Below, piece after piece: positions 9,001-18,000 of a stretch of 64,000 bases of DNA. Numbering within the stretch: the stretch's first letter is position 1; every line of letters starts with the position of its first letter. Source of the DNA: Escherichia coli (GTDB taxonomy: Bacteria > Pseudomonadota > Gammaproteobacteria > Enterobacterales > Enterobacteriaceae); the NCBI RefSeq assembly GCF_024298765.1, contig NZ_CP101211.1; one strand, written 5' to 3'. Position numbers: made by a program.

Positions 9001-12000
9001 TAGGTGGGTTTATCCCTGTTTACGATCAATTAGCAGGGACTCACTATTTTTTGATTGATGGCAACAGATTAGGGTTTATGTTTATCTGTAATCCATCACC
9101 TGGAGTTTTTGATAATCAGCAAGATGTTCTTGCTGAAATGTTCAAAATGGATTTTCCTACAGATACTGTCTGTCAAATATCTCTGACTGCATTGCCAGAC
9201 TTGACTTTACAGCTTAGTGCTTGGTCAGCTGTGCGAGGTGGGCGTATGACTGGGAACGATAAGCTTAAAGCAGATCTGCTTAATGGTTATCAGTTGGACT
9301 ACTACGACAGAAGTATGCATAAGCCTTTAAAACCTGATCATGATAACCTTATGTTGAGGGATTTTCAGGTATGGATCTCGCTATCGATTCCTTTACAGTC
9401 TGCCCTTCCTACCGAGCTGGAACATTCGCGTATCGATTCACTTTACTCTGAACTTGTAAGTAAGTTAATTACGATTGGACTGCATCCGTTTAAGGTCGAT
9501 GCAGAAAACTGGCTCTATTGTATAGATAAGGTCGTAAACCCCGGAAAGAACTCTCGGTGGGCTGAAGGTTTTATAGACGTTAACACTATGAAAAGGCTTA
9601 ATGAACAAGTTAACGTTCCCGGCCGAAAGTATACAGTCACAGAAAATCATTTCTCATCAGTCACACAAAGTGACGACGAATCTGAGCATCGTTACTTCAA
9701 ACAACTTTCCGTTGTAAAGTTTCCTGAATACGTCAATTTCGGTTGTATGTATGAGTTAGTAGTTAACTGGATGCATGGACGTAAGACAATTTTCAGCCCA
9801 TTTATGATCACTCAGACTGTTCAGTTTGCCGATCCGCTCAAGTTGTCAAAAGAAAACGTCCGCTACAAAGCAATCACTAATAAACAGGCAAGTATACCTT
9901 CAGTTGTCACATTCTGCCCTCGCCTGCGGGATATGGATAATGACTACATGGCCGTAACTCGCGAGCTTGAGGATGGCGCAAAGCTTTTAAGAGGGTATCT
10001 TACTTTCACTGTTATGGGTAGTAATGCCAATTCTGTGCAGACAGCAGCTAACGATCTCAAATCCTTTTACCTCGAAAGCCGGGTCAAAGTAGCAGATGAT
10101 TCCTTTATCGTTTTCCCGTCATTTATGTCATGTCTGCCAATGTGCAATGACCCAAAGACAATTTTCGACCTTGACCGTTCCGAAGTAGTGAGCAACACCG
10201 GAGCGGCTCATATGACGCCGATCTTTGGGCCCTGGAAAGGTAATACAGATAGACCAGTACTGAGTTTAGTTTCTCGTGAAGGTCAACTCATGGGACTTGA
10301 TATTTTCAAGACTTCTGCAAGCTATAACATGGTTATTGGTGCAACGTCAGGTGCAGGCAAGTCATTCTGGACAGCATATCTAATCAATAACTATCTTGGA
10401 GCTGGACCGCGATCTAATAACCTCGTTCATTATCGCTCAACATTTAAGCATTTTTTAGAAAACGAATACCCAGATGATGATCCTGATGGTGCTCAAGTTT
10501 TTGTAGTGGACGTGGGGCGTTCTTACCAGGGGATTGCGGAACAATATACAAACAGTCAATTTATTGATTTCGGTAAAACCCCTGACTTCACCCTAAATCC
10601 CTTTGCCTTCCTAACTGACATCACTGTTAACGACGATGTATTTAACGAAGCACCTGAATTTACCGGTGAATCAACTTCAAACGATGCAGAAAAAGACAAA
10701 GTTGCTCAGACCATAATGGTTCTGAATCAGCTAAAAATTATGGCTTCAGAGAAAGGCCTTATCGATGATTATCAACAATCAGTGATGCTTCAGCTTATTG
10801 CAGAAGAGTACCAGGAATCCAGAAAATCAGGTCGGACCGGTTCAATAACCGGCTTTGCTCTGCGTTGCAAGAAGCATGAAGACAAACGTATAAAGGATAT
10901 TGGGGAGCAACTCGGAGCATGGTGCGAAGGTGGAATTTATGGGCACCGGTTTACCGATACGTTGCCTCCAATCAACTTCGACAGCAGATTTATTGTTTTG
11001 GAACTGGAGGAGCTAAAAGGCACCCCCCACCTTCAGACAGTTGTTTTAATGTCTATCATTCAGGCTGCTCAGCATGCAATGTTCATCAAAAAAGATGGGC
11101 GTCGTCGCTTGTTCATCCTAGATGAAGCTTGGGAGTACATTCGTCCTGATAATTCATCAGGTGCCGGAAATCAATCAAACCAATTCTTCTCTTCCTTCCT
11201 CGAAGCGGCATGGCGTAGGTTCAGGAAAACAAACTGCGCTGGCATCTGTATCACACAGTCGTTTGAAGATTATTTTACTTCTTCTGTTGGCCGGGCCCTG
11301 ACTGCTAACTCGCCTTGGAAGATAATCATGAAACAAGAAAAAGAAAGCATTGAAGCAATGAAGGCTAATAAATATTTTTCTACTTCAGATGCAGAATATG
11401 AACGAATGAAAAATATTCGTACAGTCAAAAAGGTGTTTTCAGAGATGTTAGTCAGGTTCGAAAACTTCCAAGAGATCTGTCGGTTATACGTAGACCGGAA
11501 AATGGAGCTTTGTTTTACTACGGATAGTGCTGACAGGAGTAAATTATGGGAAATTCAAAGCCGCGAGAATTGTAGCTATGGCGAGGCAATAGAAATTCTC
11601 TATGCTCAAGAAGTAGCAGCGGGTTTGGCCGCGTAGAGTAAATATCTTCAAGCAAAAACAATTAAACCAGATGTCTCATAAGAATCTGGTTTTTTATTGT
11701 ATGCCTTAAGTAAACAAATGAGGTTATGACTTAATGAGTTCATCACTGTGCTGCAAATTTTGGTTTTATAATTAATATGGCTTAAAAACAGTGACATAAT
11801 TACAAATCGCATTTAGGTTGTGTACGCATTAAGTAAACAAAATTTATAACATCAATACTGACTTTATAAGATGAAATTCACGTAAATTACATTTTTGTTT
11901 ACCAAAGGTAATCAAAGGAGCGCGGCATTATTAGTGAAAACAGATCACTGGTGTCATATTGCATACAAAACTTAATATCCTTTAATCATTCTTCTAAAAG

Positions 12001-15000: not shown

Positions 15001-18000
15001 AGCTTGCATATTTAACTCCCTTAATCGCCAAACTGGTGTTCTGTCCTCATGCTGGCCTTCAGTTCTGGGCTGGGTTGCTATCTCTTGCTCCCATAATGCG
15101 AAATGTATCTGCTGATACAGATTAACGTCATATTCCTGTATGCCGGTCTGCCGACACCAGTGCTTGGGCTATTTTCGGTCATAACAAGACCTGGCGAGAG
15201 ATTTACTCAGGGCGTGGTGTGACTGAGCAGCAGCTGGGGCACTGTCATCCGCTTGCAAATTTAACCCCCTTAATCGCCAAACTTGGGTTTTGTCCTGATG
15301 CTGGCCTTCCGTTCTGGGCGGGGTTGCTATCACTTGCTCCCATCATGCGAAAAGTGCCTGCTGATACAGATTAACGTCATATTCCTTCATGCCGGTCTGC
15401 CGACACAAATGCACGGGCTTTTTTCGGTCCTTACAATACCGGGCAGGAGATTTAATCAGGGCGTGGTGTGACTGAGCAGCAGCTAGGACACTGTCAGCCG
15501 CTGGCAGATTTAACCCCCTTAATCGCCACACTGGGGTTGCCTCCTGAAGTTGGGTTTCAGTTCTGGGCTAGGTTGCTAACTCTGCTCCCATAATTCGTAG
15601 TGGGCCTACTCAAGAGATTAACACCTCATATCTTTAGACTGGACTGACGACAACGATTCACAGTTAGGAAACGTAAATCAGCACACCGGTGAGATAGATT
15701 TTAGGGTCTAAGCAAGAAATAGGGTAGGCGTGAAGATTCATTAATGGAGCTCATAACGTCAAAGCGTAGAGAAGTCGACAAGAATCGTGGTTTAAAAAGA
15801 ATGAGCATTAGGTATGGACTAGAGAGTCTGAGCTCTCATCTGCAAGTTAAGCTCACAAAAAATCATAAAAAAGTAAACAAACATTAGCTTAGGATTGAAA
15901 CAAAGGATAGAATTGTACGTATAACAATGAAATGGACGCATTATGCGTAAAGTTTACATATATGCGTAAAAGTCGGTTTTCAGTGCAAAAAGGTCATAAC
16001 CATGAATTTACTTGAAAAGATCGCCCTCGTTGGTCAGCGCATGAAAAGCGAGCAGATTTCTCTTAAGGAATCTCTGATGGCTTCATCAAGAGTATCTGTT
16101 TCTGATGATAGTGTTGATGGTGTTGATAGACTGATCTACAACCACTGTTTAAATAAAAAAAATCTCTCTGATTTTTTTGGGAAGTCACGAGTAACGTTCA
16201 ATAAAATACTTTCGGACTTAGAAGAAAAAGAACTTGTTGGTGCACCTATTTATCAAAACAAAAATCATCTTTACACCCGCTGGGATGTTCAAAAAATAAT
16301 GGATGCCCTGGGTTATCCCAAGTACCGCGATCATTACTTTAGCAGAGCTATTGTTACTCAGAATCATAAAGGCGGTACAGGGAAAAGCACTACATCTGTA
16401 GCTTTAGCAGTAGCAGCTGCTTTAGATCTACAACTGAATGCACGTGTATTAATGATCGAATGGGACCCACAAGGTTCGATTGGAAGCAGCATGATTCAAA
16501 GTGTCTCAGAAGATGATGTCTTCCTTACAGCAATTGATGCAATCCTTGGAATTTATGAAGAAAATTCTGAGTATAAAAAATATTTAGATTCAGGATTCTC
16601 TGAAGAAGAAATCATCACTAATATGCCTTTTTCAACGCATCTGCCAAACTTGGACGTGATAACGGCATTTCCGACAGATGCTCGTTTTAAAGATAAATAC
16701 TGGCAATGTTCTAGAGAAGAACGAACGTCTTTGTTACTACGTTTCAAGGAAGTTATCTTACCGGTACTGAAGCAGAACTATGATTTGATTATTATAGACA
16801 CTCCACCTGAAGATTCACCTTTGATCTGGGCTGCTGACGAAGCGGCCGATGGGATTCTTGTCGCAGTGTCACCACGTGAATATGATTACGCCTCTACTAC
16901 AGACTTCATGCTTACAATAAGTGAAAGGTTTAAACAATCACCAAGTAAGGGCGATAATTTAAAATGGTTCAAAGTTCTTGCTGTCAATGTTGATGACAAA
17001 AGTCCATATGAAAGAATAGTTTTGGATAAATTAATCAGAACTGTTCAGGACCTTTTGATGTCCGCTAACATAAAAAATTCTGAAGCATTTAAGGCAGCTG
17101 CTTCCAAAGGGCGTACAGTGCTTGATATCAAAAAATCAGAGGAACTTTGTTCCGCAAAGCAACTTGATGTCGCAGAAGAATCTGTATTACAGGTATATCA
17201 ACAATTTATAAATGAAATAAAAAGTTTTTCAGCTAAGCAAGGAGTTAACGCATGAGCGATGAGCAACATATCGGGAATGATAAATCTCGATATTTAAACG
17301 CACCAAAGCGGACAGAAGTCGGTCACCGTTCAGGTCTTGCGGGTTTGAAAACAGCACCTCGCATAAAAAAGTTATTCACTCTTCATAAGGGCCGAAGACT
17401 TGAAGCGGAACATGTGATTGTTCCAGCCCAGAGAGTGGAGAAGGAGACCTTAGTCCATCCAGCAAACCCACGAAATCAAGAAGCCCTTACAGATTATTCT
17501 GTTAGAGATATTCTTAAGCAGATTGAAGAAAGAGGGGTCGATACCGAAGGGATCGCTGTAAAAAGAGATGGGGTTTATTTATTAATAGAAGGAAGTCGCA
17601 GACGTTTCTGCTGTATAAAGGCAGAAAAGGATCTCCCCCTGTGGGTACTACCGGATGAACTAACCGAAGATGATATAAATTCAATTATATCCGCAGCACA
17701 AACATCTCGAAAATTTTCATATAGAGAAGTTGGGTTTCAATTTATCAAGAAAATGGAAGAAAAGGGATTTTCTACTAATGAAGAACTCGCAGCATATCTT
17801 GGGATTAGTCATGTATCGGTAGCCAAAAGAATCCAGGCGGCCCGTATTGACGAAACATTGATCTCTTTATTCCCGGATTATGAAGGAATACCGAACTCCT
17901 ATTATAGTCGCTTGTCTCGTTTACAGAAATATGTGCAAAAAAATCTATTTCCTTTAGATGAAGTAATAGATAATGTTAAAGAGGAAACAAAAGATTTAGA

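What the first reader, a model, noticed from the sequence alone, without database searches (positions are those of the whole stretch)
11695..15890. AAGTAAACAAA-containing motifs bracket the repeat array
A ~25-bp motif (TTGT-TA-GC-TTAAGTAAACAAA) occurs at ~11695-11720 and ~11818-11842 upstream of the array, and a related AAAAGTAAACAAACATT at 15868-15887 downstream. These may mark array boundaries or be protein-binding sites within the AT-rich flanks.
Basis: seen in the sequence. Interest (0 to 1): 0.3.

Follow-up and report, generated by a model that had tools for sequence, protein, structure and literature searches.

The report
Conserved palindromic sites beside plasmid centromere
Three short palindromic DNA sites next to the partition (centromere) repeat array of an IncHI2 resistance plasmid are real and evolutionarily conserved, so they are probably docking sites for an unidentified DNA-binding protein, while the "matching" copy on the other side of the array is just part of the parA promoter.

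Summary
AAGTAAACAAA occurs exactly at 11708, 11831 and 15871, and these are the only three copies in the 278-kb reference IncHI2 plasmid.

New here: a fourth, inverted copy lies at 11894-11902. The three upstream copies are imperfect palindromes (TTGTnTAC-N5/7-GTAAaCAA): A 11697-11717, B 11818-11840, C 11895-11915.

In a diverged IncHI2-like lineage the spacer is only 69.5% identical. The palindrome arms are 46/48 identical and their spacing is kept (P=2e-5), so A-C are constrained cis elements with the signature of a dimeric protein's binding sites.

They match neither the parS core of the array, the ParA operator, the IHF consensus, Ter or Xer sites, nor any Rfam family. The only other good copy of the dyad in the plasmid lies upstream of parM. 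That makes the ParR-like adaptor of the second partition module the leading, untested candidate binder.

The downstream copy D abuts the -35 of a conserved parA promoter. Its GTAAAC is not conserved in related lineages, so the "bracketing" is largely coincidental.

This is a modest finding: a new set of operator- or centromere-like sites in a well-known plasmid backbone.

The parts
8955..11636 (+). trhC (TraC-family conjugation ATPase), last gene of the transfer operon upstream. Context only.
   Evidence: Annotation of the near-identical record NZ_CP037959.1; ORF list.
11664..11696 (+). Intrinsic terminator of trhC (hairpin plus U-tract). Site A begins at its last T.
   Evidence: RNA fold -13.6 kcal/mol, z = -4.2, 0 of 200 shuffles as stable. 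28/33 identical in L155.
11697..11717 (.). Dyad site A: TTGTATGC-cttaa-GTAAACAA (6/8 inverted arms, 5-bp spacer).
   Evidence: TGTnTAC-N5-GTAnACA, 1 mismatch. Retained in L155 as TTGTATCC-ctaaa-GTAAACAA.
11818..11840 (.). Dyad site B: TTGTGTAC-gcattaa-GTAAACAA (7/8 inverted arms, 7-bp spacer).
   Evidence: perfect match to TGTnTAC-N7-GTAnACA. Arms identical in L155 while the spacer changes G>T. One SNP, 11831 A>T, falls in the spacer in CP123681.1.
11895..11915 (.). Dyad site C: TTGTTTAC-caaag-GTAATCAA (7/8 arms; also reads as TTGTTTACC-aaa-GGTAATCAA).
   Evidence: 20/21 identical in L155.
12063..15710 (.). parS centromere array: 15 cores (A)TTTAACCCCCTTAATCGCCA spaced about 249 bp apart. Context only. 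It contains no arm-like 8-mers.
   Evidence: The same core occurs in 52-70-bp units in IncHI1-type plasmids and as single copies beside parAB in Xenorhabdus and Commensalibacter relatives.
15871..15881 (+). Copy D: AAGTAAACAAA, a half-site only. It lies in the A-rich block 2 nt upstream of the parA -35 and is not conserved as GTAAAC.
   Evidence: No inverted partner. Position relative to the promoter. GTGAAC in L155/L156 and GAAAAC in L158.
15884..15913 (+). parA promoter: -35 TTAGCT (15884-15889), 18-bp spacer, -10 TAGAAT (15908-15913).
   Evidence: The same architecture, TTAGC(G/T)-18-TA(G/C)(A/T)AT, lies 88-92 nt before the ATG in five lineages. Invariant in the IncHI2-like lineages. Inferred promoter; no transcription start data.
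15916..15975 (+). Putative ParA operator: about three 20-bp units built on ACGCAT-n-ATGCGT palindromes.
   Evidence: Conserved in IncHI1, IncHI2 and L002. Assigned to ParA by analogy with P1-type (type Ia) ParA autorepression (inference).
16002..17255 (+). parA (type Ia partition ATPase). Context only.
21193..21211 (.). Dyad upstream of parM: TGTTTAC-ttcat-GAATACA. It is the only other <=1-mismatch copy of TGTnTAC-N5-GTAnACA in the 278-kb plasmid.
   Evidence: The orthologous site is a perfect dyad (TGTGTAC-atctt-GTATACA) in L155/L156.

Best explanation
The three upstream copies (A 11697-11717, B 11818-11840, C 11895-11915) are functional dyad-symmetric binding sites for a sequence-specific, probably dimeric, DNA-binding protein. 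They lie in the non-coding spacer between the trhC terminator and the parS centromere array of an IncHI2 plasmid.

Shown:
- The sites are palindromic and unique to this spacer.
- Arms and site-to-site spacing are under purifying selection, while the bases between the arms drift.

Inferred: a protein dimer contacts the two arms (consensus TGTnTAC...GTAnACA), and three dimers assemble a nucleoprotein complex over about 220 bp at the trhC-proximal edge of the centromere region.

The binder is not identified. The leading candidate is the ParR-like adaptor encoded after parM, in the second, type II partition module. If so, A-C would be a parC-like cluster or auxiliary operator placed beside the type I centromere. 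In this particular plasmid that gene has been lost to an ISKpn26 insertion, so the sites would be orphaned here.

The downstream copy D (15871-15881) does not belong to this set. It is part of the A-rich, UP-like block directly upstream of the -35 of the parA promoter. Its identity to the core of A and B is specific to the common IncHI2 alleles.
For: Palindromes:
- Partner arms lie within 1-2 mismatches for A, B and C only, among 53 GTAAACA sites in the plasmid. P is about 6.5e-5 under a local Markov model.
- Independently recovered by the repeat finder (families D2, I2, I6).

Constraint, against the diverged lineage L155:
- Arms 46/48 identical and footprints 63/68, against 226/325 (69.5%) for the rest of the spacer. 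Fisher P=1.8e-5.
- Spacings are 125 and 77 bp against 123 and 77 bp.
- Changes fall inside the dyad spacers (CTTAA>CTAAA, GCATTAA>TCATTAA).
- No change in the arms among 22 distinct variant events across six IncHI2 alleles.

Specificity:
- AAGTAAACAAA occurs only three times in 278 kb.
- No arm-like 8-mers occur inside the 3.6-kb array.

Link to par2:
- TGTnTAC-N5-GTAnACA at <=1 mismatch occurs only at A, C and 21193, upstream of parM, in the whole plasmid.
- The parM-upstream site is a perfect dyad in L155/L156.

Analogy in IncHI1: those plasmids carry four TGGTT-N9-AACCA dyads in the same spacer. They are conserved islands in DNA that is otherwise unalignable between two IncHI1 sublineages.

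The candidate protein (gene after parM):
- It has a conserved N-terminal ~90 aa, a variable linker and a conserved C-terminal tail, KAN..LANLA(R/K).
- Its N-terminal motif is RIQIRSFW in all IncHI2-like lineages and RIQISAFW in IncHI1, matching the change of dyad type.

Copy D: its promoter position is shown and its lack of conservation.
Against: - No binding data exist, and the binder cannot be named from sequence.
- The dyad spacer differs between sites (5, 7 and 5 bp), which a rigid dimer would not normally tolerate.
- The ParR-like protein matches no Pfam or NCBIfam family, and its AlphaFold model was unusable (pLDDT 44.6). Its DNA-binding fold is therefore untested.
- Its N-terminal domain is about 75% identical between IncHI1 and IncHI2, although the dyads differ.
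- The parM-upstream dyad is degenerate in two lineages (L154, L158).
- The co-variation argument rests on only two plasmid groups.
- Plasmids of this lineage keep A-C intact even where parR is deleted. This may only reflect how recent the IS insertion is.
Confidence: 0.55

Rival explanations
1. The copies are neutral relics of old duplications, for example a decayed duplicate of the parA promoter region, with no present function.
For: - A and B are 19/21 identical in direct register.
- The B region and the D region show a weak gapped similarity beyond the 11-mer (P about 0.04-0.06).
- B is followed by -35/-10-like hexamers with the same geometry as the parA promoter (read from the sequence).
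Against: - Arms are 96% conserved against 69.5% for the surrounding spacer in L155 (P=1.8e-5).
- There is no similarity between the 100-bp stretches that follow A and B.
- The palindromic structure is not explained by duplication.
- The similarities to the promoter region are marginal and not corrected for the many comparisons tried.
Confidence: 0.1
2. A-C are auxiliary operator sites for the plasmid's own type Ia ParA repressor. ParA also binds the ACGCAT palindromes at the parA promoter.
For: - The left half of B (GTGTACGCAT) matches the operator half-site consensus. It is identical over 11 nt to the operator of the IncHI1A relative.
- The outer arms of the operator units are also GTnTAC/GTAAA.
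Against: - The ACGCAT of B is not conserved: it is ACTCAT in L155.
- A and C lack it.
- The 11-nt match had E about 1.
- The operator dyads have 8-9-bp centres, not 5-7 bp.
- ParA and its operator are conserved between IncHI1 and IncHI2 (88-89% identity), whereas the spacer dyads differ completely.
Confidence: 0.07
3. The sites act at the RNA level, as small hairpins, a terminator/attenuator or an sRNA transcribed from the spacer.
For: - C folds to -7 kcal/mol (z = -2.85).
- The B-C inverted 10-mers can pair.
- A weak promoter-like site was found at 11772-11800.
Against: - A and B hairpins are no better than shuffles (z = -0.38).
- Arms are conserved in sequence rather than by compensatory change.
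- That promoter-like site loses its -10 T in the R478-type allele.
- No Rfam match at E<=1.
Confidence: 0.06
4. This is the first reader's reading: ParB- or IHF-binding sites that mark both boundaries of the centromere array.
For: Copies lie on both sides of the array, in AT-rich DNA next to a type Ia centromere. P1-type parS uses IHF (established knowledge).
Against: - No resemblance to the parS core that defines ParB binding in this family.
- No IHF-consensus match (<=1 mismatch) overlaps any copy.
- D is not conserved.
- IncHI1 arrays have no such motif on the parA side.
Confidence: 0.04
5. The copies are Ter-like fork-arrest sites for the plasmid's own highly divergent Tus homologue.
For: - The plasmid encodes a Tus-family protein (window 57157-58137; Pfam Ter E=4.6e-19).
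- It is too diverged to hit E. coli Tus in the PDB, so its site is unknown.
- The reverse complement of the motif (TTTGTTTACTTAA) loosely resembles the Ter core GTTGTAACTAA.
- A and B share an asymmetric 21-mer.
Against: - The resemblance needs two indels.
- Ter sites are asymmetric and Tus is a monomer, whereas A-C are dyads.
- An 18/23 TerB-like site with an exact 11-bp core exists elsewhere on the plasmid. It is probably the "potential ter" mentioned for pSTM6-275 (PMC5923156).
- IncHI1 plasmids have a different spacer motif.
Confidence: 0.03

Closest known systems
parC centromere/operator sites bound by ParR in type II (ParMRC) partition loci (R1, pB171, pSK41)
   Same: - Clustered, repeated short sites for a small adaptor protein.
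- One copy lies upstream of parM.
- The candidate protein has the ParR layout: a conserved N-terminal domain, a variable linker and a conserved C-terminal tail.
- It is encoded directly after parM.
   Different: - The main cluster lies about 9 kb from parMR, next to the type I parS array, rather than directly upstream of parM.
- There are only three sites, 77-123 bp apart, not tandem iterons.
- The sites are dyads with 5-7-bp centres.
- The protein matches no ParR family model, and binding is untested.
Palindromic operators of dimeric helix-turn-helix repressors
   Same: - 7-8-bp inverted arms.
- Arms are conserved while the central bases vary.
- Several sites are phased over about 200 bp.
   Different: - No regulated promoter or adjacent regulator gene is evident.
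- The spacer length is not constant (5, 7, 5 bp).
- The sites sit in a gene-less spacer after a terminator.
P1/P7-type parS (box A/box B plus IHF site) and ParA operator parOP
   Same: Same genetic neighbourhood: a type Ia parAB operon with an upstream centromere and an autoregulated promoter.
   Different: - The motif matches neither the family's parS core, nor the ACGCAT-type operator, nor the IHF consensus.
- These are separate elements.
TGGTT-N9-AACCA dyads in the trhC-parS spacer of IncHI1 plasmids (seen here in L003 and L014; not found in the literature searched)
   Same: - Same position: after the trhC terminator and before the array.
- 3-4 dyads within 220-380 bp.
- They are conserved islands in otherwise diverged DNA.
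   Different: - Different arm sequence and a 9-bp centre.
- Whether the same (orthologous) protein binds both is inferred only.

Membership tests
ParB-binding parS of this type Ia ParAB family | Match to the core (A)TTTAACCCCCTT(A/G)(A/T)TCGCCA, present in every array unit and beside parAB in distant relatives | tested here: not met
   The core is defined. None of A-D contains it, and arm-like 8-mers are absent from the array.
IHF binding site | Match to WATCAANNNNTTR | tested here: not met
   There are 121 matches at <=1 mismatch in the window (110 expected). None overlaps A, B, C or D; the nearest are at 11995-12021. Actual binding is not testable here.
Type Ia ParA operator (parOP-like) | ACGCAT-n-ATGCGT palindromes in ~20-bp phasing overlapping or following the parA promoter, conserved with ParA | tested here: not met
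   The operator is at 15916-15975. Only the left half of B resembles a half-site, and that is lost in L155.
Palindromic operator / dimeric-protein binding site | Inverted arms more similar than chance | tested here: met
   P about 6.5e-5. Only A, B and C among the 53 GTAAACA sites have a partner.
Palindromic operator / dimeric-protein binding site | Arms conserved while the centre and flanks diverge (phylogenetic footprint) | tested here: met
   46/48 against 69.5%; Fisher P=1.8e-5. Changes fall in the centres.
Palindromic operator / dimeric-protein binding site | Constant half-site spacing | tested here: not met
   Spacers are 5, 7 and 5 bp.
Palindromic operator / dimeric-protein binding site | Demonstrated protein binding | not testable with these tools
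   Needs EMSA, footprinting or ChIP.
Type II parC (ParR-bound centromere) | Sites shared with the parM upstream/control region | tested here: met
   The only other <=1-mismatch N5 dyad in 278 kb is at 21193, upstream of parM. It is a perfect dyad in L155/L156.
Type II parC (ParR-bound centromere) | Multiple closely spaced (tandem) repeats adjacent to parMR | tested here: not met
   Three sites are 123 and 77 bp apart and about 9 kb from parM.
Type II parC (ParR-bound centromere) | Cognate ParR with a ribbon-helix-helix DNA-binding domain | tested here: inconclusive
   The architecture is ParR-like. There is no Pfam or NCBIfam hit, and the AF2 model has pLDDT 44.6.
Tus-Ter fork-arrest site | Asymmetric ~23-bp site with a GTTGTAAC-type core and GC(6) | tested here: not met
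   There is no Ter consensus at A-D. One TerB-like site lies elsewhere. The specificity of the divergent plasmid Tus is unknown.
Xer (dif/cer-type) recombination site | 11-bp XerC arm, 6-8-bp centre, 11-bp XerD arm | tested here: not met
   By eye on the sequence: B gives 8/11 for a XerC arm but has no XerD arm at any spacing.
RepHI2A iterons | CATTCAT-n3-AATGC(C/T)TTT(T/G) repeats, as found near the rep gene | tested here: not met
   The iterons are at 1014-1600. A shares only a 10-mer, TGTATGCCTT, which is chance-level.
Sigma-70 promoter UP-like element (copy D only) | A/T-rich block directly upstream of the -35 (about -38 to -59) | tested here: met
   D ends 2 nt before the -35 TTAGCT. All five lineages have an A-rich block there. 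The effect on transcription is not testable here.
Known structured RNA (Rfam) | Covariance-model match | tested here: not met
   No match at E<=1 in 11500-16100.

The most novel reading that the evidence does not exclude
The three dyads are the real centromere (parC) of the IncHI type II ParM/ParR module. On this reading it sits about 9 kb from parMR and immediately beside the type I parS array, so the two partition systems of IncHI plasmids share one composite centromere region. IncHI1 and IncHI2 would have co-evolved different ParR/dyad specificities: RIQISAFW with TGGTT-N9-AACCA, and RIQIRSFW with TGTnTAC-N5-GTAnACA.
Probability: 0.15. Interest if true: 0.5.

Novelty: new member of a known kind. 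Interest (0 to 1): 0.3.

Why it matters
IncHI2 plasmids are major carriers of mcr, ESBL and metal-resistance genes, and they are very stable. Their stability rests on two partition modules whose cis-acting sites are poorly defined.

A conserved set of protein-binding dyads next to the parS array, echoed upstream of parM and paralleled by a different dyad set in IncHI1, gives a concrete and testable lead. It points to how the two modules are wired together and to an incompatibility or curing target.

It also corrects the first impression. The repeat array is not symmetrically bracketed: the parA-side copy belongs to the promoter.

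Tried and rejected
- **Literature.** Lawley & Taylor 2003 on R27 partitioning could not be read. 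The R27 incC paper concerns a different locus. A text search for TGTTTAC operators returned only unrelated Gram-positive and archaeal systems. The R27 transcriptome paper shows only that parAB are constitutive and HtdA-independent.
- **Simple k-mer enrichment within the flanks.** Not significant for 6-8-mers, because simulated AT-rich DNA yields equally frequent low-complexity words.
- **Extended homology between the A and B neighbourhoods.** None found beyond the 21-mer.
- **A fifth site, "E", at 12017-12039.** Weak, and hit by substitutions; rejected.
- **Similarity of A to a RepHI2A iteron, and of A or B to operator units.** Chance-level by my own estimate of expected matches.
- **Host-factor consensus sequences recalled from memory** (CRP, FNR, Fis, Lrp, LexA, TyrR, CpxR, PhoP, OmpR, MarA, NarL, LacI/GntR types). 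None fits a full site. PhoP and OmpR half-site resemblances (TGTTTA, GTTTAC) remain untested leads.
- **Small ORFs in the spacer (54 aa, 49 aa).** No family hits, and the start codon of the first is lost in the R478-type allele.
- **Genome-contig scan with ParA.** It gave only identical IncHI2 or relatives at <=68% identity.
- **A 5-9-5 reading (TGTTT-N9-AAACA).** Too unspecific in IncHI2 (22 hits).
- **IncHI1-type dyads at the parM promoter.** These may partly be promoter sequence.
- **AlphaFold model of the ParR-like N-terminus.** Low confidence, so not used.

Full report
**Setting**

The window is nearly identical to bases 1-64000 of IncHI2 plasmids such as NZ_CP037959.1. It shows 100% identity over 11400-16400, and 1,128 plasmid records match. 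It differs from that record by four substitutions in the first 30 kb, none in the region studied, and by a 777-bp indel from 37616.

The finding lies in a 4.4-kb gene-less gap between trhC (8955-11636) and parA (16002-17255). Most of the gap is an array of about 249-bp units. It holds 15 copies of the core (A)TTTAACCCCCTTAATCGCCA.

The same core forms 52-54-bp units in IncHI1 plasmids and 70-bp units in another relative. It also occurs as one or two copies beside parAB in Xenorhabdus and Commensalibacter relatives. The array is therefore the parS centromere of the type Ia ParAB module. The motif under review lies in the AT-rich flanks (GC 0.27-0.37).

**The observation**

All three stated occurrences are present. 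AAGTAAACAAA is exact at 11708, 11831 and 15871. A fourth copy of GTAAACAAA, on the other strand, lies at 11894-11902.

- In the complete 278,374-bp reference plasmid the 11-mer occurs nowhere else.
- Four of the five 9-mer copies found in 41 kb of comparably AT-rich DNA fall in the 718 bp of flanks.
- A test that allows any 11-mer to be the repeated one gives P about 0.01-0.02.

The motif is real and is not a by-product of AT-richness.

**Anatomy**

The upstream copies are imperfect palindromes:
- A: TTGTATGC-cttaa-GTAAACAA (11697-11717)
- B: TTGTGTAC-gcattaa-GTAAACAA (11818-11840)
- C: TTGTTTAC-caaag-GTAATCAA (11895-11915)

Under a local Markov model the chance that three of four anchors have such partners is about 6.5e-5. 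Among 53 GTAAACA sites in the plasmid only these three have a partner. D has none.

Site A starts at the last T of a good intrinsic terminator of trhC (-13.6 kcal/mol, z = -4.2). A and B share 19/21 positions, but the 100 bp that follow them are unrelated. No arm-like 8-mer occurs inside the array.

**Conservation**

In PLSDB the spacer exists only in IncHI2 plasmids. There are essentially two alleles, 100% and 96.5% identical, and the motifs are intact in both. Adding four rarer alleles gives 22 distinct variant events. None falls in an arm, and one (11831 A>T) falls in the centre of B. Alone this is weak evidence (P about 0.07).

The decisive comparison came from a metagenomic contig (L155, 237.5 kb), reached through a homologue of the gene after parM. 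Its ParA is 98.8% identical to the window's, but its spacer is far more diverged:
- Outside the sites and the terminator, 226 of 325 aligned positions (69.5%) are identical.
- In the arms, 46 of 48 positions are identical; in the whole footprints, 63 of 68. Fisher P=1.8e-5.
- The site-to-site distances are 125 and 77 bp, against 123 and 77 bp.
- The changes that do occur lie in the centres of the dyads.

This is the classic footprint of protein-binding dyads. It argues against neutral relics and against RNA hairpins. Hairpins would also be weak: A and B fold no better than shuffles. No Rfam family matches.

**The downstream copy**

Five lineages share a parA promoter with the same geometry: -35 TTAGC(G/T), an 18-bp spacer and -10 TA(G/C)(A/T)AT, 88-92 nt before the ATG. 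It is followed by about 20-bp units built on ACGCAT-n-ATGCGT, the presumed ParA operator.

D ends 2 nt before the -35. It aligns with an A-rich block present in all lineages, for example AAAAAGAAACAGAACG in IncHI1. In the IncHI2-like lineages L155/L156 and L158 the promoter and operator are invariant, but D reads GTGAAC or GAAAAC instead of GTAAAC.

D is therefore best read as part of an UP-like A-tract. The exact 11-mer identity with A and B is lineage-specific. The picture of a motif bracketing the array does not hold as a functional statement.

**What the sites are not**

- They do not resemble the parS core.
- No IHF-consensus match overlaps them.
- They lack the ACGCAT palindromes of the operator. 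The one resemblance, the left half of B, is lost in L155.
- They do not match the Ter consensus.
- They have no XerD-type arm, and they are unrelated to the RepHI2A iterons at 1014-1600.

The plasmid does encode a very divergent Tus homologue (Pfam Ter E=4.6e-19, no PDB hit). However, an 18/23 TerB-like site with an exact 11-bp core lies elsewhere, at reference plasmid 200,830-200,852. In addition, the dyad symmetry of A-C does not suit a monomeric Tus.

**Who might bind**

Written as TGTnTAC-N5-GTAnACA, the dyad has only three copies at <=1 mismatch in the 278-kb plasmid: A, C and a site at 21193-21211 upstream of parM. B is a perfect match with a 7-bp centre. In L155/L156 the parM-upstream site is a perfect dyad (TGTGTAC-atctt-GTATACA), although it is degenerate in two other lineages.

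IncHI1 plasmids carry four dyads of a different type (TGGTT-N9-AACCA) in the equivalent spacer. These are almost the only alignable islands between two IncHI1 sublineages.

The gene after parM encodes a 212-225-aa protein with three features:
- a conserved N-terminal ~90 residues;
- a variable linker;
- a conserved C-terminal tail, KAN..LANLA(R/K).

This is the layout known for ParR adaptors. That comparison is an inference from the published R1, pB171 and pSK41 systems, not a test. Its N-terminal motif is RIQIRSFW in all IncHI2-like lineages and RIQISAFW in IncHI1, in step with the dyad type.

The protein is the best candidate binder, but the case is circumstantial:
- It matches no family model.
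- The structure prediction failed.
- The co-variation rests on two groups.
- In the window's own plasmid, ISKpn26 truncates parM after residue 229 and parR is gone.

**Verdict**

Three conserved dyad sites lie in the trhC-parS spacer, plus one unrelated look-alike in the parA promoter.

- The most likely mechanism is sequence-specific binding of a dimeric protein at A-C (confidence about 0.55).
- The ParR-like adaptor of the second partition module is the leading candidate (about 0.3).
- The more novel reading, that A-C are the actual parC centromere, has a probability of about 0.15.

Nothing here is categorically new. It is a new, testable set of cis elements in a clinically important plasmid backbone.

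Noticed in passing
window 12063-15710; L002, L003, L014, L019-L021: The repeat array is a parS centromere whose core (TTTAACCCCCTTAATCGCCA) is shared across the whole ParAB family. Units are 249 bp in IncHI2, 52-54 bp in IncHI1 and 70 bp in a Citrobacter plasmid. Xenorhabdus and Commensalibacter relatives have single AACAACCCCCTTGTTCGCCAAA sites downstream of parB or upstream of parA.
   Followed up: partly
window 14560-14735: About 180 bp of non-repeat sequence interrupts the array, between a degenerate core (AAAACCCTTTATTCGCCA at ~14541) and the next regular unit. TRF accordingly splits the array in two (12124-14554 and 14735-15594).
   Followed up: no
window 15884-15975: The parA promoter (TTAGCT-18-TAGAAT) and a three-unit ACGCAT-palindrome operator are conserved in five lineages. 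More distant relatives use GTGCATT-n-AATGCAC palindromes at the same place.
   Followed up: partly
window 11783-11799, 11944-11981, 12037-12054: Besides A-C, these blocks of the spacer are also nearly invariant in the diverged lineage L155, for example TCACTGGTGTCATATTGCATACAAAACTTAATATC. Their function is unknown.
   Followed up: no
L003 4891-5203; L014 3948-4262: IncHI1 plasmids carry four TGGTT-N9-AACCA dyads in the trhC-parS spacer. They are conserved between two sublineages whose spacers are otherwise unalignable. Weaker copies lie around the parM start and after parR.
   Followed up: partly
window 21362-23147: parM is truncated after residue 229 by an ISKpn26 (IS5-family) insertion, and the downstream ParR-like gene is missing. 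The type II partition module is therefore inactive in this plasmid.
   Followed up: yes
window 21013-21035 and 21187-21211: Two related ~22-bp sites (ATGTTTAC-wTC(G)ATGA-TACrG) lie upstream of parM. The second overlaps a 12-bp perfect palindrome, TAAACATGTTTA. The first loses its TGTTTAC in lineage L156.
   Followed up: partly
window 57157-58137; reference plasmid NZ_CP037959.1 200,830-200,852 (L009 36830-36852): The plasmid encodes a very divergent Tus-family protein. An E. coli TerB-like site, AATATTTAAGTTGTAACTAATAT (18/23, exact 11-bp core, lacking the GC(6) pair), lies in the Tra1 region. It is probably the "potential ter" mentioned for pSTM6-275.
   Followed up: partly
window 1014-1600: At least nine ~20-bp iterons, CATTCAT-n3-AATGC(C/T)TTT(T/G), lie in both orientations downstream of the RepHI2A gene (1-876).
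   Followed up: no
window 11995-12021: Three overlapping 1-mismatch matches to the IHF consensus lie about 45 bp before the first parS core. This is at chance frequency for the window, and the block 12008-12017 is conserved in L155.
   Followed up: no
window 37616 onward: The window is not the same plasmid as the best-matching record NZ_CP037959.1. It carries about 777 extra bp from 37616, so annotated coordinates beyond that point are shifted.
   Followed up: partly
reference plasmid NZ_CP037959.1 249,428-249,450 (outside window): TTTGTTTACGTAAATGC, containing TTTAC·GTAAA, lies about 107 bp upstream of an Ig-like-domain protein gene. It is the only other AT-rich-region copy of the 9-mer.
   Followed up: no
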